Part shown: one piece after another, positions 32,949-51,135 of the stretch | Layout of the letters: every line of letters starts with the position of its first letter | Position numbering within the stretch: position 1 is the stretch's first letter | From: an uncultured Alphaproteobacteria bacterium | GTDB lineage: Bacteria; Pseudomonadota; Alphaproteobacteria; RF32; CAG-239 | NCBI GenBank assembly: GCA_910585375.1 | Contig: CAJUCZ010000002.1 | Span: forward strand, 43,285-107,284 | DNA: 64,000 nucleotides | Direction: 5' to 3' | Notes under the pieces: generated by a model | Told to the model about the DNA's origin: nothing | What the model saw: only the letters and a program-made list of their open reading frames with translations | Databases searched by the model: none | Translations under genes and position numbers: made by a program

Positions 32949-34538
32949 CTATCTTCCGCGGGCATCGTACATTGCCAGCCTCAAATTATTATCTTGCTGC
33001 AACGTTGCCACAAACTTCCCTTTAAATTTGCCGGCTCGGTTCATCAGCCCGTTGTAATCATTTGTTTTTTCTCCGCCCCTTTTATGATGCTTATTAATAA
33101 AGTCAATCCGCGCTTTAACCATATGATCATAAAAATACTGCTCGTTTTTCGCTTTGCCGGCAATACCGTTCGCCAGTTCCACAATTTTGTCCGTCCGTCG
33201 CACGTTCTTGCGTCCTCTGGCCTCATAAATTCCGTTGGCAATAATCTGTGACGCCGTCTTTGACGAATGGTTCACGCGAATGTCAAACAGCAATAAGGCA
33301 ATGCTCTCATTTTTAAAATCGCCGATTCTGTAATAATCATAAAAATCTTTTTTATAAATAAGCTCGCATTGCTCTTTATTCAGATTCTTAATATTTCCGG
33401 CAGTCGGGAAATCAAGTTCTTCCGCCAGTTTTTTATTATTCTTCCAAAAATTCTTTAAGGTAATGCTGGTAATTCCCATTTGGGTCGGATAATCCCATGA
33501 CACATTGCGATAACCGCCCTCATGTTTGAATACAACTCCCATAAAACGTTGAAATTTTTCATCATCCAACCCGTATTCCGCACGGATTTTTTGCGGCAGC
33601 TTTCCTTTTTTTACGGCTGTTTTTTCCAATGTTTTCTCTTTAATGCCGACTTTGATCTGCTCCGCTTTTTCACTTACCGCAATTCTTTTCTCCGACACAA
33701 CCTTTTTCTTTGCCTGCACCTTCCTTTGTCCTTCAACCGGCTTAATCACCTCGGGCATAACGGCCGCTTTCATCTCCCTGGCATCAACTTCCGCTTTCGA
33801 AAGCTTTTCAGTCTTGTCTTTTGCCTTTTCCTTTTGCTTTTCCTGCAGCTGCTGATGAGCATACAAGCCGCCGGTCAGGGTTAATGTTGTCAGGGCTGCC
33901 CCGACAACAGCTTTTCTGGAAGCCTGACAAAACCGATCAGCCCCGATTCTGATGCGATGAGCTTTATCAGCTCGCTGTAACAAAATTTTTGCCCCGTTGT
34001 AAGCGGACTTCGCCCCCTTTGCCATAAAAGCGCCAAACGCTGCCGCCTTATCTTTAGCTTTTTCCCAAAGATAACGGTTGTAAACGTCTTCCATATTCTC
34101 AATATTGTCCAAACCGAGTTCGGTCAGCCGCCCCTGCCCGATACCGCATTCGTTAAGCTTTTGCATATAAGCTGCAGCCCGCCGATAATCCCGATACGCC
34201 GACCGCATAATTCCGTCCGCAATATCGCAGTCTTTTTTATCGCTGTCCCGTTCGTCAAACGGCACCACGAAAGTCCCGCCGTTAAACACGATTTTACGCG
34301 GTTGAAGCCCGGCGTCTTTATAACGCGCGATATCCCGATACTGACGGCTGAAATAATCACGGACAAACTTCTTTTTTGCCTCACCTGCTTCTAAAGAACT
34401 TCTGATATAAAAACACGGAATAATAACCGGCCGGTTATCAATTGTCATAACCTGCGGCGTCATATTAAAACCGGCATATTCCCGTTTTAAAAAACGAAAT
34501 ACGGCATCATTCGGAAGGTTATCGGCATTCTTGCTCAT
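32949..34538 (-). CDS. Membrane-anchored protein with C-terminal GH108 lysozyme-like (peptidoglycan-binding) domain and a novel ~220-aa N-terminal domain
   Basis: C-terminal VFKHEGGYRNVSWDYPTQMGIT resembles the GH108 N-terminal signature; one central TM AVVGAALTTLTLTGGLYA; K-rich coiled linker. Start moved to MSKNADN (GGAGA RBS); a TATAAT lies upstream in what the track translated. Confidence 0.5.
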   Translation of the reverse strand: MSKNADNLPNDAVFRFLKREYAGFNMTPQVMTIDNRPVIIPCFYIRSSLEAGEAKKKFVRDYFSRQYRDIARYKDAGLQPRKIVFNGGTFVVPFDERDSDKKDCDIADGIMRSAYRDYRRAAAYMQKLNECGIGQGRLTELGLDNIENMEDVYNRYLWEKAKDKAAAFGAFMAKGAKSAYNGAKILLQRADKAHRIRIGADRFCQASRKAVVGAALTTLTLTGGLYAHQQLQEKQKEKAKDKTEKLSKAEVDAREMKAAVMPEVIKPVEGQRKVQAKKKVVSEKRIAVSEKAEQIKVGIKEKTLEKTAVKKGKLPQKIRAEYGLDDEKFQRFMGVVFKHEGGYRNVSWDYPTQMGITSITLKNFWKNNKKLAEELDFPTAGNIKNLNKEQCELIYKKDFYDYYRIGDFKNESIALLLFDIRVNHSSKTASQIIANGIYEARGRKNVRRTDKIVELANGIAGKAKNEQYFYDHMVKARIDFINKHHKRGGEKTNDYNGLMNRAGKFKGKFVATLQQDNNLRLAMYDARGR

Positions 34539-34633
34539 GGAACTGTCTCCGCTATATACTTTAGCAGTATTATAACAAAGACCGGCCATGGAATCAATAA
34601 AAAAGGGCTGCCGGAAAGACAGCCCCCGTTTTT

Positions 34634-44412: not shown

Positions 44413-44440
44413 AGACAACACCCAACATAAATAAATGCCA

Positions 44441-44485
44441 CCTGCAAGAGGCGGCATTTATTTATGGCGTACCCGGACGGGGATA
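44441..44485. repeat. Copy of terminator hairpin + tRNA-Arg 3'-end fragment (aaataaatgccRcctgcaagaggcggcatttattta-tggcgtacccgg...)
   Basis: Near-identical to 44820-44878 at the genuine tRNA 3' end. Confidence 0.6.
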
Positions 44486-44676
44486 GGGACAAAAAACTGA
44501 CCAACGTCAGATTTTTGGCACGTATCCCTAGCTTTACTTGTTGAGCAAGGAAAGCGGCAGCAACCGCAGCGAAACTAAGAAAGCTTGGAGCCCTCCCCGT
44601 GAAAACAAGCTCCTGCGATGTTTGAACGGAAGGGTACATCACAAAAAATCCCCAGCAATGCAGGGGATTTTGAAGT

Positions 44677-44696
44677 GGCGTACCAGGAGGGATTAC
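44677..44696. repeat. Second displaced tRNA-Arg 3'-end fragment (tggcgtaccaggagggatt)
   Basis: 19 of 20 identical to the tRNA-Arg 3' end at 44856-44875. Confidence 0.55.
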
Positions 44697-44855
44697 TCTT
44701 CGCTTCGCTCCAAGTTGCACTGGCGCTCGTTCGCTTTGCTCACCGGCGTTCTCCCGCCCGCCTCTCTCTGGTAGTCAAACCCACTTACTCGTGGGTTCAA
44801 ATCCACCGCTCCACAACATAAATAAATGCCGCCTGCAAGAGGCGGCATTTATTTA

Positions 44856-44932
44856 TGGCGTACCCGGAGGGATTCGAACCCACGACCCTCGGCGTCGGAG
44901 GCCGATACTCTATCCAACTGAGCTACGGGTAC
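44856..44932 (-). tRNA. tRNA-Arg (anticodon CCG)
   Basis: Manual fold: acceptor GTACCCG/CGGGTAC, D-arm GCTC/GAGT, anticodon stem TCGGC/GCCGA with loop CTCCGAC, T-loop TTCGAAT, encoded CCA. One U-U mismatch in the T-stem. Confidence 0.8.
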
Positions 44933-47033: not shown

Positions 47034-47068
47034 CGGATATGTACCTGTGTAACCAAGGTACATATTTT
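47034..47068. terminator. Terminator atatgtacct-gtgtaacca-aggtacatat plus T7
   Basis: Perfect 10-bp stem followed by a T-run after dnaB. Confidence 0.7.
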
Positions 47069-47094
47069 TTTATTAACTTTAAATTAAATAAATA

Positions 47095-47123
47095 TTGACA
47101 TTTAATGAAAGGTGGGGTATAAT
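47095..47123 (+). promoter_or_regulatory. Perfect consensus sigma70 promoter TTGACA-17 nt-TATAAT upstream of pilin paralog 1
   Basis: TTGACA at 47095-47100, 17-nt spacer, TATAAT at 47118-47123, AAGGAG RBS at 47137-47142. Confidence 0.7.
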
Positions 47124-47146
47124 TTATGTCATAAACAAGGAGAAAA

Positions 47147-47530
47147 ATGATGAACTTCCTCAGAAAAAACATTTGGACAATCTGCCTGATTCTGGCCTTT
47201 GTCCTCATTTCAGGATCAGCTATGGCGGCAACGGGCAGTCAAAGCAGCCTTATGGGTATTGCTAAACAAAAAGCCTTCACTACTTTCAACAATGTCAAAA
47301 ACATCATCTTTATCGTTGGCGGTTTCGGTCTGGTTTTGCTGGCCTTCAACGCCATCTTCGGCAAACTCAAATGGACGGCTTTTGCCTCGCTGGCCGTTGG
47401 TTTGGCAATTTTAGCCGCCGCCGGTGCTATCGTCCGTTACGCAACCGGTGATACAAACTTAAATGCCACAGGTCAGGGAGCTGACAGTTTTGGCGATACT
47501 TTCCAGCAATCTGCCGCAGACACTTACTAA
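47147..47530 (+). CDS. TrbC/VirB2-like type IV secretion pilin paralog 1
   Basis: Cleavable signal peptide (AMA), two hydrophobic segments separated by GK(L)KW, and a C-terminal IVRY. First 31 codons are identical to paralog 2. Confidence 0.6.
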   Translation: MMNFLRKNIWTICLILAFVLISGSAMAATGSQSSLMGIAKQKAFTTFNNVKNIIFIVGGFGLVLLAFNAIFGKLKWTAFASLAVGLAILAAAGAIVRYATGDTNLNATGQGADSFGDTFQQSAADTY

Positions 47531-47555
47531 AAGCATAAGGCGTTGCCTGAACAAC

Positions 47556-47644
47556 GCCTTATTCCTCGGAGAGAAACCCTTGCAAGTAAACCCAATTTAC
47601 GAGATTAATTTTCTCACCGGATTTCTCTCCGCCTCTTTTTATTA
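47556..47644 (+). other. Conserved 3' structured element copy 1 (10-bp stem cggagagaaa...tttctctccg enclosing ~45 nt), candidate ncRNA/3'UTR element
   Basis: About 97% identical to 51047-51135; follows a terminator hairpin aaggcgttg-cctgaa-caacgcctt. Confidence 0.45.
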
Positions 47645-48022
47645 ATGCCTTCCGCAACAACATCCTTCATGTTTCTTTCCGGTTTTCTTGCAGCAGTCAT
47701 CACCCCGTCCGCAATGACAGACATCATCGTCTCCGCAGTGGCCGCCGCAATCACACCCCTGATTGCCGCACGCACAGGTTTCTTCCGCCGTATTTTTGGT
47801 ATAGTATTCAAACTCACCGCTGCCGTCAGCATTAAACCGCGCAGAAAAACTGCCGGAACTAAAACTAAGTTTACCCGATTCGGCCTGCATAGAATCCGGA
47901 ATTTCGCCCTCGGCAATCGCCTGCTGCATTTTTTCCAATCTTTTCTTTTTTCCTTCGCAACACGCACAACCCGAGCCTTGTATCGGTCCTGAAATTAATA
48001 ATTTTGCCAGCCAGCCAAACAT
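47642..48022 (-). CDS. Cys/Gly-rich protein with metallothionein-like C-terminal domain (126 aa)
   Basis: C-terminal ETCACGNQGCDCGGHCGDDDVCHCGRGDDCCKKTGKKHEGCCCGRH. Strong RBS aaggagaaagaaaa before the ATG at 48022. Confidence 0.5.
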   Translation of the reverse strand: MFGWLAKLLISGPIQGSGCACCEGKKKRLEKMQQAIAEGEIPDSMQAESGKLSFSSGSFSARFNADGSGEFEYYTKNTAEETCACGNQGCDCGGHCGDDDVCHCGRGDDCCKKTGKKHEGCCCGRH

Positions 48023-48090
48023 TTTTCTTTCTCCTTAAAATCATTTATAGTATTATAGCGGACAAATCATTAAAAAAAAGGAAAAATGAA

Positions 48091-48528
48091 GTGCGGGAAC
48101 ACTTTTGGAAACATAAAAAACTTGCCGATTTTACGGAGGAAGAATGGGAAGCCGTCTGTATGAACTGCGGCAAATGCTGTCTGTTCAAACTGGAAGACGA
48201 AGACAGCGGCGAAATTTACTATACAAATGTCGCCTGCCGTTATTTCGACAAAGAACACTGCCGCTGCAGTTGCTATCAAGAACGCTGCAAACTGGTTCCG
48301 ACCTGCCTGAAACTAACCAAAGACAATGTCGATAAAATCAGCTGGATGCCGCAAAACTGCGCTTATCGCCGGCTGGCAGAAGGCAAAGGCCTGCCGGATT
48401 GGCACCCGCTCTTAAACAATGGTCAGATGGCTGAAGAACATACCATAAAAAACTATTGCATTTCGGAACTCGAAATTGATGAAAATGACCTTGAAGACCA
48501 TATTATCGAGGATTGGGATGAACAATGA
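48091..48528 (+). CDS. YcgN/UPF0260-family (CxxCxxCC) putative metal-binding protein, paralog 1 (GTG start)
   Basis: CMNCGKCC motif and PDWHPL; the N-terminus aligns with paralog 2 when started at the GTG at 48091. Confidence 0.6.
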   Translation: MREHFWKHKKLADFTEEEWEAVCMNCGKCCLFKLEDEDSGEIYYTNVACRYFDKEHCRCSCYQERCKLVPTCLKLTKDNVDKISWMPQNCAYRRLAEGKGLPDWHPLLNNGQMAEEHTIKNYCISELEIDENDLEDHIIEDWDEQ

Positions 48529-49031
48529 GCAACAAAGAATACAGCCTGGAAGCCGCATATGACCCGCAGTCGCGTTATGACGACTTGTCCCGATTCGAAC
48601 CGGAATTCTGGAAAAAGAAAAAATTGGAAGACCTGAACAAAGAAGAATGGGAACTTCTTTGCGACGGTTGCGGCAAATGCTGCCTGAACAAGCTTGAGAT
48701 TAAAGGAAAAATAAAATTCACCAACACCCGCTGTCGCTTTTTGGACTGCCAAAACTGCCTGTGTAAAATATACAGCCGCCGTTTTGAAAAAGTGCCGGAC
48801 TGCCGTGACATCGACCTTGCCGCCATTCGCGAAAAGCCCCGCTGGCTGCCGAAAACCTGTGCATATTGGCTTTTGGACAACGGCTTTGACCTGCCGGATT
48901 GGCACCCGCTGAAAACCGGCTGCGCCGACAGCGTCCATAAAGCAGGAATGTCGTTAAAAGACAAAGATACCGTTTCCGAAACAGGAATAGAAGATTATGA
49001 GAATTACATTATTGACTGGCCGGACCTTTGA
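48525..49031 (+). CDS. YcgN/UPF0260-family protein, paralog 2
   Basis: CDGCGKCC and PDWHPL motifs; tandem with paralog 1. Confidence 0.65.
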   Translation: MSNKEYSLEAAYDPQSRYDDLSRFEPEFWKKKKLEDLNKEEWELLCDGCGKCCLNKLEIKGKIKFTNTRCRFLDCQNCLCKIYSRRFEKVPDCRDIDLAAIREKPRWLPKTCAYWLLDNGFDLPDWHPLKTGCADSVHKAGMSLKDKDTVSETGIEDYENYIIDWPDL

Positions 49032-49707
49032 TTATGCTGCGGCTCTGGGCTACGATATCAAAGTTGTCAAATCGCCCCGTGCCAGCAAGCTGATTTTAAG
49101 AATTGACAATAAAGAAAGGATTCCCGTTCTGACAATACCGCGCTACTGCTCAAGCAAACGGGCTCTTGAATTTGTCCGCAGCAATCAGGAATGGATAGAT
49201 TCCTGCCTGTCCAAGATTCCGCAAATCAGACAGTTTCAGAACGGCGAACAACTGTCGCTCTTCGGCAAAACTTATACCGTCAGACATATGCCCAATGCCC
49301 GCGCCGGCGTCTTTTTTGACGGCGATTCGGTTTGCGTGTCCGGCGGACGGGAATTTTTGCACCGCCGCCTGCGCGATTTTATCAAAGAACAGGCGCAAAA
49401 AAAGTTTCGTCAGGCTTCACAGCGGCTGGCTGCAAAAATAGACTGCCATGTCAACGATGTTTATATCAAAGACACCAAAAGCCGCTGGGGCAGCTGCTCC
49501 AACCGCAATAATATTAACTATAACTGGCGGATTGCCTTAGCGCCGGACTATGTCATAAAATACCTGATTGCCCATGAAGTGTCCCACCTCCGCCATCCGG
49601 ATCATTCCGAAGACTTCTGGAACTGCGTTGCCTCTTTTGAACCGCGCTATCACAAAGGCCGCGACTGGTTGAAAGAACACGGCAAAGAACTTTATATCTA
49701 CGAATAA
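48997..49707 (+). CDS. YgjP-like (DUF45/M48-like) metal-dependent hydrolase
   Basis: HEVSHL zinc motif with the surrounding DUF45 pattern. Confidence 0.65.
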   Translation: MRITLLTGRTFDYAAALGYDIKVVKSPRASKLILRIDNKERIPVLTIPRYCSSKRALEFVRSNQEWIDSCLSKIPQIRQFQNGEQLSLFGKTYTVRHMPNARAGVFFDGDSVCVSGGREFLHRRLRDFIKEQAQKKFRQASQRLAAKIDCHVNDVYIKDTKSRWGSCSNRNNINYNWRIALAPDYVIKYLIAHEVSHLRHPDHSEDFWNCVASFEPRYHKGRDWLKEHGKELYIYE

Positions 49708-49771
49708 CGCCGTCACAAAGCTTGATTCACTCATAAAAAATTTCTATATTATATACAGATATAACCTAATT

Positions 49772-50512
49772 ATGGAGAAATTTCTTATGGAAAACAAAAT
49801 TTATACTGCACCTGTTGAAACGACTGTCGTCAACGAAGGTCTGCGTGAATACCTGATGAAAGTATTCAACTACATGGCCGGCGGCCTCTGCATTACCGCT
49901 CTGGCTTCTTATCTGATTATCAGCAATCCGTCGGTAATGCGGCTGTTTTATAACATCACGCCGCAAAGTGCCGGTCTCTCGGCCTTGGGCTGGATTGCCT
50001 TTTTGGCACCGCTGGTTATTGTTTTTGCCTTCGGCTGGGTTATCAACCGCGGCACCGCTTCTCAGGTTAAAGGCGTCTTTTGGCTGTATTCTGCATTGAT
50101 GGGCGTTTCGCTCTGCCCGATTCTGCTTTTATACACCGGTGAAAGCGTTACCCGTGTTTTCCTGATTACCGCTGCAACCTTTGGTGCCATGAGCCTTTAC
50201 GGCTATACTACCAAACGCGATTTAAGCGGTCTGGGCAGCTTTTTGATTATGGGACTGATCGGTGTTATTATCGCCATGGTCGTTAATATGTTTATGAAAA
50301 GCGAAACCATGTCTTATGCCCTCTCGGTATTGAGCGTTTTGATCTTCACCGGCTTAACAGCCTATGACATACAGAAAATCCGCGCAATGTATGTTGATTA
50401 TGAAGACAATGAAATAACAACCAAAAAAGCCGTTGCCGGCGCTTTGTCATTGTATCTTGACTTCATCAACATCTTCATCAATCTGCTGCGTTTGATGGGC
50501 GACCGCAGATAA
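49772..50512 (+). CDS. Bax-inhibitor-1/YccA-family membrane protein
   Basis: 7-TM profile with BI-1-like conserved loops. Confidence 0.7.
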   Translation: MEKFLMENKIYTAPVETTVVNEGLREYLMKVFNYMAGGLCITALASYLIISNPSVMRLFYNITPQSAGLSALGWIAFLAPLVIVFAFGWVINRGTASQVKGVFWLYSALMGVSLCPILLLYTGESVTRVFLITAATFGAMSLYGYTTKRDLSGLGSFLIMGLIGVIIAMVVNMFMKSETMSYALSVLSVLIFTGLTAYDIQKIRAMYVDYEDNEITTKKAVAGALSLYLDFINIFINLLRLMGDRR

Positions 50513-50594
50513 AATCCGCACCGGAAATTATAATTTCTAAAAAGAGTCTGAATTTTTCAGGCTCTTTTTTTATTAACTTTAAATTAAATAAATA

Positions 50595-50623
50595 TTGATA
50601 TTTATTGAAAGGTGGGATATAAT
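50595..50623 (+). promoter_or_regulatory. Near-consensus sigma70 promoter TTGATA-17 nt-TATAAT upstream of pilin paralog 2
   Basis: Duplicate of the 47095-47123 module with 3 substitutions. Confidence 0.65.
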
Positions 50624-50646
50624 TTATGTCATAAACAAGGAGAAAA

Positions 50647-51024
50647 ATGATGAACTTCCTCAGAAAAAACATTTGGACAATCTGCCTGATTCTGGCCTTT
50701 GTCCTCATTTCAGGATCAGCTATGGCTACCAATACCGGCGGCGGGCAAAACAGTTTGATGGATATTGCCAAAACCAAAGCCGGTACAACTTTTCAGAACG
50801 TAAAAAGCATTGTGTTTATCGTCGGGGGTTTTGGCTTGGTCTTGCTGGCCTTCGGTGCCATCTTCGGCAAAATCAAATGGTCGGCTTTTGCCTCGCTGGC
50901 CGTTGGTTTGGCGATTTTGGCTGCGGCCGGTTCTATCGTCAAATACGCAACCGGCGACAGTAAAGTAAGCGGACAAGAGAGCACTTATTTTGTAGATACA
51001 TTCCAAAATTCCGCAACAGACTAA
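50647..51024 (+). CDS. TrbC/VirB2-like type IV secretion pilin paralog 2
   Basis: Same architecture as paralog 1: identical signal peptide and a diverged mature region. Confidence 0.6.
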   Translation: MMNFLRKNIWTICLILAFVLISGSAMATNTGGGQNSLMDIAKTKAGTTFQNVKSIVFIVGGFGLVLLAFGAIFGKIKWSAFASLAVGLAILAAAGSIVKYATGDSKVSGQESTYFVDTFQNSATD

Positions 51025-51046
51025 AACAAAGGCGTTGCCTGAACAA

Positions 51047-51135
51047 CGCCTTACTCCTTGGAGAGAAACCCTTGCAAGTAAACCCAATTTACGAGATTAA
51101 TTTTCTCACCGGATTTCTCTCCGCCTCTTTTTATC
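51047..51135 (+). other. Conserved 3' structured element copy 2
   Basis: See 47556-47644. Confidence 0.45.

What the first reader, a model, noticed from the sequence alone, without database searches (positions are those of the whole stretch)
47087..51135. Duplicated VirB2/TrbC-like pilin paralogs with identical consensus promoters and conserved 3' element bracketing a 3.5 kb gene block
Two 126-127-aa genes (47147..47530 and 50647..51024) share about 220 bp of identical sequence. This covers a perfect sigma70 promoter (TTGACA-17-TATAAT, and TTGATA-17-TATAAT), an AAGGAG RBS, and the first 31 codons (signal peptide MMNFLRKNIWTICLILAFVLISGSAMA). Their mature domains then diverge. Both have the VirB2/TrbC architecture: two hydrophobic helices around a GK(L/I)KW turn and a C-terminal I-V-R/K-Y. 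Multi-copy scattered VirB2 paralogs are a hallmark of Rickettsiales-type T4SS. The perfect consensus promoter predicts very high expression of surface-exposed, antigenically variable pilins. The strict identity of the 5' and 3' flanks against the diverged mature domains suggests gene conversion or cassette-like exchange. The flanks could also mediate inversion or deletion of the intervening block: the Cys-rich protein, two YcgN paralogs, YgjP-like and BI-1.
Basis: partly seen in the sequence, partly recalled or inferred. Interest (0 to 1): 0.7.

Follow-up and report, generated by a model that had tools for sequence, protein, structure and literature searches.

The report
Satellite VirB2 pilin gene cassettes
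An uncultured gut alphaproteobacterium carries two extra, self-contained copies of its type IV secretion pilin gene among housekeeping genes; their control regions are kept nearly identical while the likely surface-exposed pilin ends vary, a new variant of pilin diversification known from Anaplasma and Bartonella.

Summary
Two direct-repeat ORFs (47147-47530, 127 aa; 50647-51024, 125 aa) both pass the Pfam TrbC/VirB2 threshold. Each lies in a ~580-bp cassette: a near-consensus sigma70 promoter, AAGGAG, a 27-codon signal peptide, a variable mature pilin and a structured 106-nt 3' element.

The window holds no T4SS machinery. A vertically inherited locus (three TrbC-like genes, a VirB3-sized ORF, VirB4) was found in sister species. 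It also occurs in the same two metagenome samples that hold this exact locus.

In this genus the cassettes occupy up to three intergenic sites:
- The flanks evolve in concert: dS is 0.06 in the signal peptide against 0.57 in the core, and one species shares the same synonymous changes at all three sites.
- The mature N-terminus and C-tail are hypervariable and reassorted.
- The T4SS-locus pilin is 96-100% conserved across the same species.
- One public MAG holds the exact reciprocal crossover products of the two copies.

The "Rickettsiales-type" label is not supported.

Unexpected lead: invariant loops of the 3' element are perfectly complementary (16 + 12 nt) to the translation-initiation region of the T4SS-locus pilin. 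This suggests antisense cross-regulation, which is untested.

The parts
47065..47146 (+). Cassette A 5' block. It contains an A/T-rich UP-like tract, -35 TTGACA (47095-47100), -10 TATAAT (47118-47123), a short leader and SD AAGGAG (47137-47142).
   Evidence: The block is 89-96% identical to the 5' blocks of all satellite copies in five sister species.
47147..47530 (+). Satellite pilin A (127 aa). The signal peptide is 47147-47227. The mature domain is 'type 1', with a long tail ending in GDTFQQSAADTY.
   Evidence: PF04956 at 28.0 bits against a cut-off of 27.9. It is identical to P0001, found on 14 contigs. The mature domain resembles the T4SS-locus pilin and L018_B rather than the site-A orthologues.
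47537..47642 (+). Cassette A 3' element. Hairpin 1 is 47537-47560. The Y-shaped three-way junction is 47568-47630, with an invariant core (16-mer 47581-47596, 12-mer 47604-47615). The U-run is 47631-47642. It abuts the stop of the convergent Cys-rich ORF.
   Evidence: MFE -36.5 kcal/mol, z -5.8. Four pairs carry compensatory changes across 11 copies, and the core is invariant. The core is complementary to the T4SS-locus pilin TIR.
47642..48022 (-). Cys-rich 126-aa ORF, the first gene of the 3.5-kb intervening block.
   Evidence: No Pfam match. Conserved in relatives.
48088..49031 (+). Two tandem YcgN-like CxxCxxCC paralogues (48088-48528 and 48525-49031).
   Evidence: PF03692 at E 7e-9 and 6e-4. 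Internal direct repeats D5, D7 and D8.
48997..49707 (+). YgjP-like metallopeptidase.
   Evidence: PF01863 at E 1e-49.
49772..50512 (+). Bax-inhibitor-1 / YccA-like membrane protein, the last gene of the block.
   Evidence: PF01027 at E 4e-62.
50565..50646 (+). Cassette B 5' block. It contains -35 TTGATA (50595-50600), -10 TATAAT (50618-50623) and SD 50637-50642.
50647..51024 (+). Satellite pilin B (125 aa). The signal peptide is the same as in A. The mature domain is 'type 2', with tail SKVSGQESTYFVDTFQNSATD.
   Evidence: PF04956 at 34.3 bits. The tail module matches the site-A copy of another species.
51029..51134 (+). Cassette B 3' element. Hairpin 1 is 51029-51052, the Y junction 51060-51122, the 16-mer 51073-51088, the 12-mer 51096-51107 and the U-run 51123-51134. 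The rpmH promoter region follows.

Best explanation
The two ORFs are paralogous, independently transcribed 'satellite' copies of the major VirB2/TrbC-family pilin. They belong to a chromosomal, vertically inherited type IV secretion system in an uncultured gut alphaproteobacterium (the window is GCA_948940615.1, contig CARAPH010000002.1).

Each copy is a ~580-bp expression cassette with these parts:
- an A/T tract and a near-consensus sigma70 promoter;
- a short leader with AAGGAG;
- a 27-codon signal peptide;
- a mature pilin;
- a hairpin plus a Y-shaped terminator.

In this genus such cassettes have been copied into up to three intergenic sites among housekeeping genes: A after dnaB, B before rpmH, and a third site C. 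All are far from the T4SS locus, which keeps its own almost invariant pilin.

Recombination between copies (gene conversion) keeps the regulatory and export flanks homogeneous. It also reassorts the N-terminal and C-tail segments of the mature pilin. These two segments are hypervariable, whereas the two-helix core never changes.

The likely outcome is that one secretion machine can be supplied with abundant, alternative pilin subunits. This would vary the pilus surface, for example for immune or phage evasion or partner recognition.

Shown here: the homology, the copy census, concerted evolution of the flanks, where the variation lies, the recombinant contigs, and the presence of the T4SS locus in the same species lineage.

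Inferred: the transcription level, incorporation into a pilus, and what the variation is for.
For: Family assignment:
- PF04956 passes the gathering score for both ORFs.
- 193 homologues are all PF04956-annotated and are named TrbC/VirB2 where a name is given.
- The AF2 model gives a helix hairpin, 37-72 and 78-101.

T4SS locus:
- It holds a pilin, two more TrbC-like genes, a 96-aa ORF and VirB4 (TIGR00929, E 2e-106). It is found in sister genomes and in the same two samples that carry this exact window locus: ERZ17758937 (L004 with L093) and ERZ17810135 (L002 with L094).
- Its divergence from four sister species (93/90/90/79%) mirrors that of the window's housekeeping region (92/89/91/80%).

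Multi-copy and dispersed: MGYG-HGUT-04444 has 4 loci, RGIG9125 has 3 loci (4 copies) and CASGEB has 3 loci. Site C is orthologous in three species. All satellites share the 5' block and the 3' element.

Concerted evolution:
- Between W_A and W_B, dS is 0.058 in the signal peptide. It is 0.565 in the core, 1.26 in the N-variable part and saturated in the tail.
- In one species the copies at sites A, B and C share about 8 synonymous changes that are absent from three other species.

Variation:
- Entropy is confined to residues about 28-36 and 104-117, and the modules are mosaic (for example P0008).
- Orthologous satellites are 68-87% identical. The T4SS-locus pilin is 96-100% identical across the same five species.

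Recombination between A and B: L015 and L013 are exact reciprocal crossover products of L101_A x L101_B. L013 has a 119-nt terminal overlap.

No plasmid or viral relatives were found.
Against: - There are no expression data. The promoter strength is a consensus match only.
- In the window's own MAG, neither the T4SS locus nor a site-C copy was retrieved. The link rests on co-occurrence in two samples and on matching divergence.
- Only VirB2 and VirB4 of the machinery are recognisable. The other locus proteins match nothing, so the function of the apparatus is unknown.
- dN/dS in the tail is 0.3-1.2 on about 25 codons. It cannot separate diversifying selection from relaxed constraint.
- In RP4 TrbC the C-terminal tail is removed during maturation (own knowledge). 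If that happens here, the tail variation would not be displayed on the pilus.
- Foldseek gave no significant match to solved pilins.
- The recombinant contigs come from one short-read MAG.
Confidence: 0.72

Rival explanations
1. The conserved 3' element is more than a terminator. As part of the abundant satellite mRNA, or as a processed 3'UTR-derived small RNA, its two exposed loops pair with the leader and Shine-Dalgarno/start region of the T4SS-locus pilin mRNA. This would down-regulate the ancestral pilin when a satellite is expressed, a form of pilin exclusion. This adds to the best explanation rather than replacing it.
For: - The 16-mer TGCAAGTAAACCCAAT occurs only in satellite 3' elements. 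Its exact complement occurs only 18-33 nt upstream of the ATG of the T4SS-locus pilin. This holds in every genome of the same clade and in no other genus.
- A second 12-nt perfect complement, ATTAATTTTCTC against GAGAAAAUUAAU, covers the SD through to the AU of the AUG.
- In the 128 kb of window sequence (both strands) the longest chance complement to the core is a single 12-mer.
- The two segments lie in the same 5'-3' order in both RNAs, so the element is not a simple inverted copy of the leader.
- The 36-nt core is invariant across 10 of 11 copies, while the enclosing stems change by compensatory substitutions.
- The core sits in loops and half-stems of a stable fold.
- The net cofold gain is -9.8 kcal/mol, against -3.2 for the satellite's own TIR. 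Only 3 of 200 shuffles and 1 of 53 natural TIRs do as well.
Against: - There are no RNA data.
- The TSS of the T4SS-locus pilin is unmapped, and no good sigma70 match lies upstream.
- The whole T4SS-locus intergenic region is 95% conserved in this clade, so the target site shows no site-specific conservation.
- There is no covariation between element and target. The one variant copy (L038_C) introduces a mismatch.
- Only one clade carries the pair, so n = 1.
- The Y stem must open, or kissing complexes must form. The thermodynamic advantage is modest.
- A DNA-binding protein that recognises both sites cannot be excluded.
Confidence: 0.3
2. This is a plain recent duplication with no ongoing exchange. 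The flanks are identical only because they are young or under purifying selection as promoter, signal peptide and terminator. The mature domains simply drifted.
For: - Promoter, SD, signal peptide and terminator are all functional elements expected to be conserved.
- The flank identities between W and its nearest species (92-98%) are near the genomic background of about 93%.
Against: - Both sites A and B pre-date the split of several species. Even so, synonymous divergence between the paralogues is ten times lower in the signal peptide than in the equally constrained core.
- Three loci in one species share the same synonymous changes.
- Allele type and site are uncoupled. W_A is type 1 where sister species have type 2. 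L018 has type 1 at B. The W_B tail matches the site-A tail of another species.
- Chimeric alleles exist, for example P0008.
Confidence: 0.1
3. This is a Neisseria-like pilE/pilS system. One copy is the expression locus and the others are silent donor cassettes that feed it by unidirectional gene conversion.
For: - Conserved flanks bracket variable cassettes.
- A conserved 3' repeat lies downstream of every copy.
- Alleles are mosaic.
Against: - Every copy has its own near-consensus promoter, SD, start codon, full signal peptide and complete ORF. None is truncated or promoterless.
- The T4SS-locus copy, the natural 'expression site', is the one that does not vary.
Confidence: 0.05
4. The ORFs are small two-helix membrane proteins unrelated to pili, and the Pfam hits are borderline noise from hydrophobic composition.
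For: - Copy A scores only 0.1 bit above the gathering cut-off.
- NCBIfam, the PDB sequence search and Foldseek give nothing specific.
Against: - A paralogue that is 81% identical is the first gene of a cluster with two more PF04956 genes, a VirB3-sized ORF and a VirB4 ATPase. This holds in more than 60 genomes.
- The profile match is full-length, 91 of 98 positions.
Confidence: 0.03

Closest known systems
VirB2 paralogue families of Anaplasmataceae (Anaplasma phagocytophilum, 8-15 virB2 copies; PMC3556328)
   Same: - There are multiple VirB2 genes for one T4SS.
- Diversity is concentrated in two hypervariable regions, one near the N-terminus of the mature protein and one near the C-terminus, around two conserved hydrophobic helices (one search compared).
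- In both cases exposed, antigenically variable pilus subunits have been proposed.
   Different: - In Anaplasma the paralogues are clustered in one array next to virB4-2. Here they are single-gene cassettes dispersed among housekeeping genes, each with its own near-consensus promoter and a shared structured 3' element.
- The host here is a free-living-type gut alphaproteobacterium, not a member of the Rickettsiales.
- A frozen 'master' copy at the T4SS locus is contrasted with variable satellites.
Bartonella Trw T4SS: tandem amplification of trwL (VirB2) and trwJ-H (PMC2610397, which cites Nystedt et al. 2008, Mol Biol Evol 25:287)
   Same: - The VirB2-type pilin gene is amplified.
- Concerted evolution combines with diversification of the surface-exposed parts.
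- The variant pilus components are probably co-expressed.
   Different: - Trw copies are tandem within the operon of a horizontally acquired, R388-like system.
- Here the copies are dispersed autonomous cassettes of an ancient, vertically inherited and otherwise unrecognisable T4SS.
Neisseria pilE/pilS antigenic variation (own knowledge)
   Same: - Conserved flanks, including a 3' repeat, bracket the variable pilin segments.
- Alleles are mosaics produced by recombination.
   Different: - Neisseria pilin is a type IV pilin, an unrelated protein.
- The pilS copies are silent and truncated. Here all copies are complete and carry promoters.
3'UTR-derived trans-acting sRNAs of enterobacteria (for example CpxQ, DapZ, SroC; own knowledge)
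   Same: - The candidate regulatory RNA shares the 3' end and terminator of an abundant mRNA.
- It has an invariant seed-like core.
- It is complementary to the translation-initiation region of another mRNA.
   Different: - Nothing is known here about processing or chaperones.
- There are two separate complementary segments displayed on a three-way junction.
- The proposed target is the paralogue of the gene that carries the element.

Membership tests
TrbC/VirB2 pilin family (Pfam PF04956) | The profile HMM score is at or above the curated gathering threshold, with a full-length match. | tested here: met
   Scores of 28.0 bits (copy A) and 34.3 bits (copy B) against a cut-off of 27.9. Profile positions 7-97 of 98 are matched. 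Copy A is borderline.
TrbC/VirB2 pilin family (Pfam PF04956) | A long signal peptide followed by two hydrophobic helices joined by a short basic loop. | tested here: met
   The sequence has the signal peptide ending in AMA, then IIFIVGGFGLVLLAF, the GK(L/I)KW loop, and AFASLAVGLAILAAAG. The AF2 model has helices 37-72 and 78-101, with pLDDT 80-88 in the core.
TrbC/VirB2 pilin family (Pfam PF04956) | Encoded together with VirB3/VirB4-type assembly genes. | tested here: inconclusive
   This is not so for the two window genes: the large ORFs of the window are all housekeeping genes. It is so for the 81%-identical paralogue in the same species lineage, where the order is pilin, 2 TrbC-like genes, a 96-aa ORF and VirB4.
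TrbC/VirB2 pilin family (Pfam PF04956) | A fold like that of solved conjugative or T-pilus pilins. | tested here: inconclusive
   Foldseek against the PDB gave no match with E < 1, only generic helical hairpins. A profile search of PDB sequences found no pilin.
TrbC/VirB2 pilin family (Pfam PF04956) | Polymerises into a pilus, with possible cyclisation or C-terminal processing. | not testable with these tools
   This needs biochemistry or cryo-EM.
Rickettsiales vir homologue (rvh) T4SS | The host belongs to the Rickettsiales. | tested here: not met
   All 80 related loci are gut MAGs labelled Alphaproteobacteria, 'Azospirillum sp.' or Ca. Scatocola. Ca. Scatocola is filed under Rhodospirillales.
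Rickettsiales vir homologue (rvh) T4SS | Split islands with duplicated virB4, virB6, virB8 and virB9 and no virB5. | tested here: inconclusive
   One VirB4 lies next to the pilins. The neighbouring ORFs (102, 476, 235, 381 and more than 1399 aa) match no Pfam or NCBIfam model.
Rickettsiales vir homologue (rvh) T4SS | Multiple virB2 paralogues. | tested here: met
   There are up to 4 major-pilin genes plus 2 TrbC-like genes per genome. They are dispersed, whereas in Anaplasma they are clustered.
Silent-cassette pilin variation (pilE/pilS type) | Donor copies lack a promoter, a start codon or the 5' coding part. | tested here: not met
   All copies carry a promoter, SD, ATG, signal peptide and complete ORF.
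3'UTR-derived trans-acting sRNA | It lies at the 3' end of an mRNA and shares its intrinsic terminator. | tested here: met
   The element starts 7 nt after the stop codon and ends in a stem plus a U-run. In some copies the U-run is degenerate.
3'UTR-derived trans-acting sRNA | A conserved seed is complementary to a target mRNA, usually at its ribosome-binding site. | tested here: met
   There are 16-nt and 12-nt perfect complements to the leader and the SD-AUG region of the T4SS-locus pilin. The core is invariant.
3'UTR-derived trans-acting sRNA | The RNA species accumulates and regulates the target. Compensatory mutations restore the regulation. | not testable with these tools
   This needs RNA-seq or Northern blots and reporter assays.

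The most novel reading that the evidence does not exclude
The satellite pilin cassettes carry an antisense regulator of the ancestral pilin gene in their 3' UTR. Two invariant loops on a Y-shaped terminator pair with the leader (16 nt) and with the SD/start codon (12 nt) of the T4SS-locus virB2 mRNA. A strongly transcribed satellite would therefore silence the frozen master pilin and take over pilus composition. This would be RNA-mediated paralogue exclusion built into a portable pilin cassette.
Probability: 0.3. Interest if true: 0.8.

Novelty: new variant of a known kind. Interest (0 to 1): 0.6.

Why it matters
Uncultured gut Alphaproteobacteria of this group are widespread in humans, ruminants, birds and mice. 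Almost nothing is known about how they interact with hosts or with other microbes.

This work shows that they carry a conserved, vertically inherited and largely unrecognisable T4SS. In one genus, the pilin of that system has been turned into a family of dispersed, recombining, promoter-equipped cassettes. This marks the pilus as a surface structure under strong diversifying pressure, from immunity, phages or partner recognition.

It also gives a compact natural example in which concerted evolution of regulatory flanks and diversification of exposed segments can be studied.

If the 3'UTR-to-leader complementarity is functional, it would be a new way for paralogous surface-protein genes to exclude one another. 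It is directly testable with reporter fusions.

Tried and rejected
- NCBIfam gave no hit for either pilin.
- A profile search of PDB sequences returned only spurious methanol dehydrogenase hits.
- AF2 plus Foldseek against the PDB gave only generic helical hairpins with E > 1, so structure adds nothing beyond a two-helix hairpin.
- Rfam at E <= 1 over 44-54 kb found only tRNA-Arg.
- tblastn against plasmids and a scan of viral contigs found no relatives.
- A literature search for a T4SS in RF32-type gut Alphaproteobacteria found no paper. One search failed on term syntax.
- Operator idea: I considered the palindrome AATAAATATTGATATTTATT over the -35 of copy B. Its right half varies among copies, so I dropped it.
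- Insertion signatures: I compared filled and empty sites (L018 lacks copy A; L019 has another gene at B) and found no target-site duplication or terminal inverted repeat. The copying mechanism remains unknown.
- Duplex energy of the whole Y element against random windows was uninformative, because its purine and pyrimidine arms pair with many sequences.
- Satellite pilins exist in other genera (L057, L064), and tandem copies in L045, L088 and L091. They have ordinary terminators and lack the Y element, so the element-target pairing could not be tested for covariation across genera.
- I could not retrieve other contigs of the window's own MAG. I also could not model the T4SS-locus proteins, because the tools do not accept them.

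Full report
**1. The observation**

The window holds two + strand ORFs, 47147-47530 (127 aa) and 50647-51024 (125 aa). An alignment and a repeat search give three segments:
- a 162-nt 5' block at 98% identity (47065-47226 vs 50565-50726), whose three mismatches all lie in the promoter region;
- a 229-nt middle part at 79%;
- a 106-nt 3' block at 98% (47537-47642 vs 51029-51134).

The longest exact runs are 109 nt and 75 nt. Probes from either block occur exactly twice in the window and never in shuffles.

The promoter scan finds TTGACA-17-TATAAT (12/12) upstream of copy A and TTGATA-17-TATAAT (11/12) upstream of copy B. The shared coding part is the 27-codon signal peptide.

The window is identical to part of GCA_948940615.1 contig CARAPH010000002.1. 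The same A-block-B layout is present in several independent assemblies.

**2. What the ORFs are**

Both pass the gathering score of PF04956 TrbC/VirB2 with a full-length match, at 28.0 and 34.3 bits against 27.9. A search of the large protein collection returns 193 relatives. Nearly all are PF04956-annotated, and those that carry a name are called 'TrbC/VirB2 family protein [Alphaproteobacteria bacterium]'.

An AF2 model shows the expected helix hairpin. Foldseek and PDB sequence searches are uninformative.

No T4SS machinery lies in the window. Its large ORFs are nusA, infB, ftsH, addAB-like nucleases, ftsK, H+-PPase, dnaB, yidC, leuS, rsmB and similar genes.

**3. Where the machinery is**

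A scan of species-representative genomes found 231 relatives, of which the best 80 loci were kept. All come from gut MAGs of Alphaproteobacteria; two records are labelled Lactobacillus or Lactobacillaceae, probably through mis-binning.

In most of these loci the pilin is the first gene of a conserved cluster:
- the pilin, followed by two further TrbC-like genes;
- a 96-aa ORF in the virB3 position;
- an ~810-aa VirB4 (TIGR00929, E 2e-106);
- a divergent upstream cluster of type IVb-pilus genes (TcpQ, secretin, PilO, T2SSE, T2SSF).

The other proteins of the locus match no Pfam or NCBIfam model.

The version of this locus whose pilin is P0006 (81% identical to copy A) occurs in the same two metagenome assemblies that contain the exact window locus: ERZ17758937 (L004 and L093) and ERZ17810135 (L002 and L094). 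Its nucleotide identity to four sister species is 93/90/90/79%. That of the window's housekeeping region to the same species is 92/89/91/80%.

I conclude that the window's species has this T4SS locus and that the locus is inherited vertically. I could not retrieve it from the window's own MAG.

**4. Satellite cassettes**

Within the genus, the unit of 5' block, signal peptide, mature pilin and 3' element recurs at further places.
- Site A (dnaB | Cys-rich ORF) and site B (BI-1 | rpmH) are both filled in the window species, in RGIG9125 (L009, L010, L014) and in L101.
- Only B is filled in L018 and in the more distant L007. Only A is filled in L019.
- A third site, C, is orthologous in three species (L016, L017, L038).

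Sister genomes thus hold up to four major-pilin genes plus the two TrbC-like genes of the T4SS locus.

No transposase, target-site duplication or terminal inverted repeat marks the cassette borders. The 5' border falls right after the terminator of the upstream gene.

**5. How the copies evolve**

Synonymous divergence between copies A and B is uneven:
- 0.058 in the signal peptide;
- 0.565 in the protein-invariant two-helix core;
- 1.26 in the N-terminal variable part;
- saturated in the tail.

In the species represented by L101, L013, L015 and L017, the copies at sites A, B and C all share the same ~8 synonymous substitutions in the signal-peptide DNA relative to three other species. In those other species, the A, B and C copies share the alternative states. 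Because the sites pre-date these species, this is the signature of concerted evolution by gene conversion.

Across 26 distinct satellite alleles, variation is confined to residues ~28-36 (the start of the mature protein) and ~104-117 (the C-tail). The core is invariant.

The modules are reassorted:
- Copy A is 'type 1' where sister species have 'type 2' at site A.
- L018 has type 1 at site B.
- The tail of copy B matches the site-A tail of another species.
- P0008 joins a type-1 N-module to a type-2 tail.

Orthologous satellites are 68-87% identical in the mature domain. The T4SS-locus pilin is 96-100% identical across the same five species.

The contrast with this frozen master copy argues that the termini are functional and that their variability in the satellites is not mere junk. 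Even so, dN/dS on ~25 codons (0.3-1.2) cannot by itself separate diversifying selection from relaxed constraint. C-terminal processing as in RP4 TrbC (own knowledge) would change the reading.

**6. Recombination between A and B**

In MGYG-HGUT-04444, one contig runs dnaB-pilin-rpmH without the 3.5-kb block (L015). A separate 3609-bp contig (L013) carries BI-1-pilin-Cys-rich...YgjP and has a 119-nt terminal overlap, so it is a circular path.

Compared base by base with the standard A-block-B arrangement of the same species (L101):
- L015 is the 5' part of A joined to the 3' part of B;
- L013 is the reciprocal;
- the switch lies in a 50-nt identical run, which is shorter than the apparent k of 119.

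These are the products expected from a crossover between the direct repeats, namely a deletion plus a circle. Because this is one short-read MAG, I treat it as suggestive and not proven. Direct repeats cannot give inversion.

**7. The 3' element**

It folds into hairpin 1 followed by a three-way junction and a U-run, at -36.5 kcal/mol and z -5.8.

Across 11 copies, four pairs show compensatory changes, in hairpin 1 and in the outer stem of the junction. A 36-nt core, TGCAAGTAAACCCAATTTACGAGATTAATTTTCTCA, is invariant in all copies except the diverged L038_C. On the minus strand, hairpin 1 has the better U-run. It could therefore stop transcription entering from the convergent gene at sites A and C. 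The element is therefore at least a terminator for both directions.

Its core also contains a 16-mer whose exact complement lies 18-33 nt upstream of the start codon of the T4SS-locus pilin, in every genome of this clade and nowhere else in the loci held. A 12-mer in the core is complementary to GAGAAAAUUAAU, which runs from the SD to the AU of the AUG of the same gene. In 128 kb of window sequence (both strands), the best chance complement to the core is a single 12-mer.

The two segments occur in the same order in both RNAs, so the element is not a simple inverted copy of the leader. They sit in the two small hairpin loops and adjoining half-stems.

A full-length cofold gains -9.8 kcal/mol, against -3.2 for the satellite's own initiation region. 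Only 3 of 200 shuffles and 1 of 53 natural initiation regions do as well.

Other genera have different leaders and no such element.

This suggests antisense control of the master pilin by satellite transcripts. The weaknesses are:
- there are no RNA data;
- the TSS is unmapped;
- the target's whole intergenic region is conserved;
- there is no covariation, and only one clade carries the pair.

I give it about 0.3.

**8. Comparison with known systems**

The closest parallels are the VirB2 paralogue arrays of Anaplasma and the tandem trwL amplification of the Bartonella Trw system.
- Anaplasma has 8-15 copies, with two hypervariable regions near the N- and C-termini (PMC3556328).
- Bartonella Trw shows concerted evolution together with diversification (PMC2610397, citing Nystedt et al. 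2008).

The case here differs in four ways:
- the copies are dispersed, autonomous, promoter-equipped cassettes among housekeeping genes;
- a conserved master copy coexists with variable satellites;
- the host is a gut commensal-type alphaproteobacterium with an otherwise unrecognisable T4SS;
- all cassettes share a structured 3' element.

It is not a pilE/pilS-type system, because no copy is silent. The 'Rickettsiales-type' label fails on taxonomy and on arrangement.

**9. Verdict**

Gene conversion is supported, and the deletion potential is plausibly supported. The Rickettsiales framing is not supported, and the expression claim is untested. I rate this a new variant of a known kind, with one new and testable lead in the 3'UTR-leader complementarity.

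Noticed in passing
L093:1-20387 (also L011, L020-L092): A T4SS locus is conserved in more than 60 gut alphaproteobacterial MAGs, with VirB4 about 67-84% identical across genera. It holds three TrbC-like genes, one of them fused to a long C-terminal extension in some genomes. The following ORFs (102, 476, 235, 381 and more than 1399 aa) match no Pfam or NCBIfam model. An adjacent divergent cluster encodes type IVb-pilus-like genes (TcpQ, secretin, PilO, T2SSE, T2SSF). The system as a whole looks undescribed.
   Followed up: partly
L015:9900-10500 and L013:1-3609 (MGYG-HGUT-04444), compared with L101: Two contigs of one public MAG are the exact reciprocal products of a crossover between pilin copies A and B. 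One is a chromosome contig that lacks the 3.5-kb block. The other is a 3.6-kb contig with a 119-nt terminal overlap, so it is a circular path. The switch lies in a 50-nt identical run.
   Followed up: partly
window 44423-44932: There are three copies of a ~58-nt unit. Each is a palindromic terminator-like hairpin followed by TGGCGTACC(C/A)GGA(G/C)GG, the 3' end of tRNA-Arg(CCG). Only the last copy continues into the complete tRNA gene (44856-44932, minus strand). Repeated tRNA-end fragments of this kind can be scars of integration events.
   Followed up: no
window 47095-47100 and 47147-47530: Copy A is the only satellite with the perfect TTGACA -35; all others have TTGATA. It also carries four substitutions (VKN, AFN, GKL, KWT) at positions that are invariant in the other 25 satellite alleles.
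   Followed up: partly
window 47642-48022 (minus strand): A 126-aa ORF with no Pfam match is very rich in Cys, His, Asp and Gly runs (CACCEG..., CDCGGHCGDDDVCHCGRGDDCC..., CCCGRH). It is conserved next to dnaB in relatives and may bind metal.
   Followed up: no
window 48088-49031: Two tandem, overlapping YcgN-like (CxxCxxCC) paralogues share stretches of 70-83% nucleotide identity. This tandem duplication is conserved in all relatives examined.
   Followed up: no
window 32949-34589 (minus strand): A 546-aa protein has a GH108 lysozyme-like domain only in its C-terminal part. The N-terminal ~350 aa are unassigned.
   Followed up: no
L045:10001-10819, L088:8689-9615, L091:10001-10977; L057 and L064: Other genera of the same group have duplicated the major pilin independently. 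In L091 the tandem duplication includes the promoter and terminator. L057 and L064 have copies away from VirB4. These copies have ordinary terminators and no Y-shaped 3' element.
   Followed up: partly
L051, L083 (record titles): Two contigs that carry this alphaproteobacterial T4SS pilin are deposited in MAGs labelled Lactobacillus sp. and Lactobacillaceae. This is probably mis-binning.
   Followed up: no
L019:13350-14450: In this species, site B (between BI-1 and rpmH) holds a ~1-kb minus-strand ORF instead of a pilin cassette. The intergenic site has therefore been used for different insertions.
   Followed up: no
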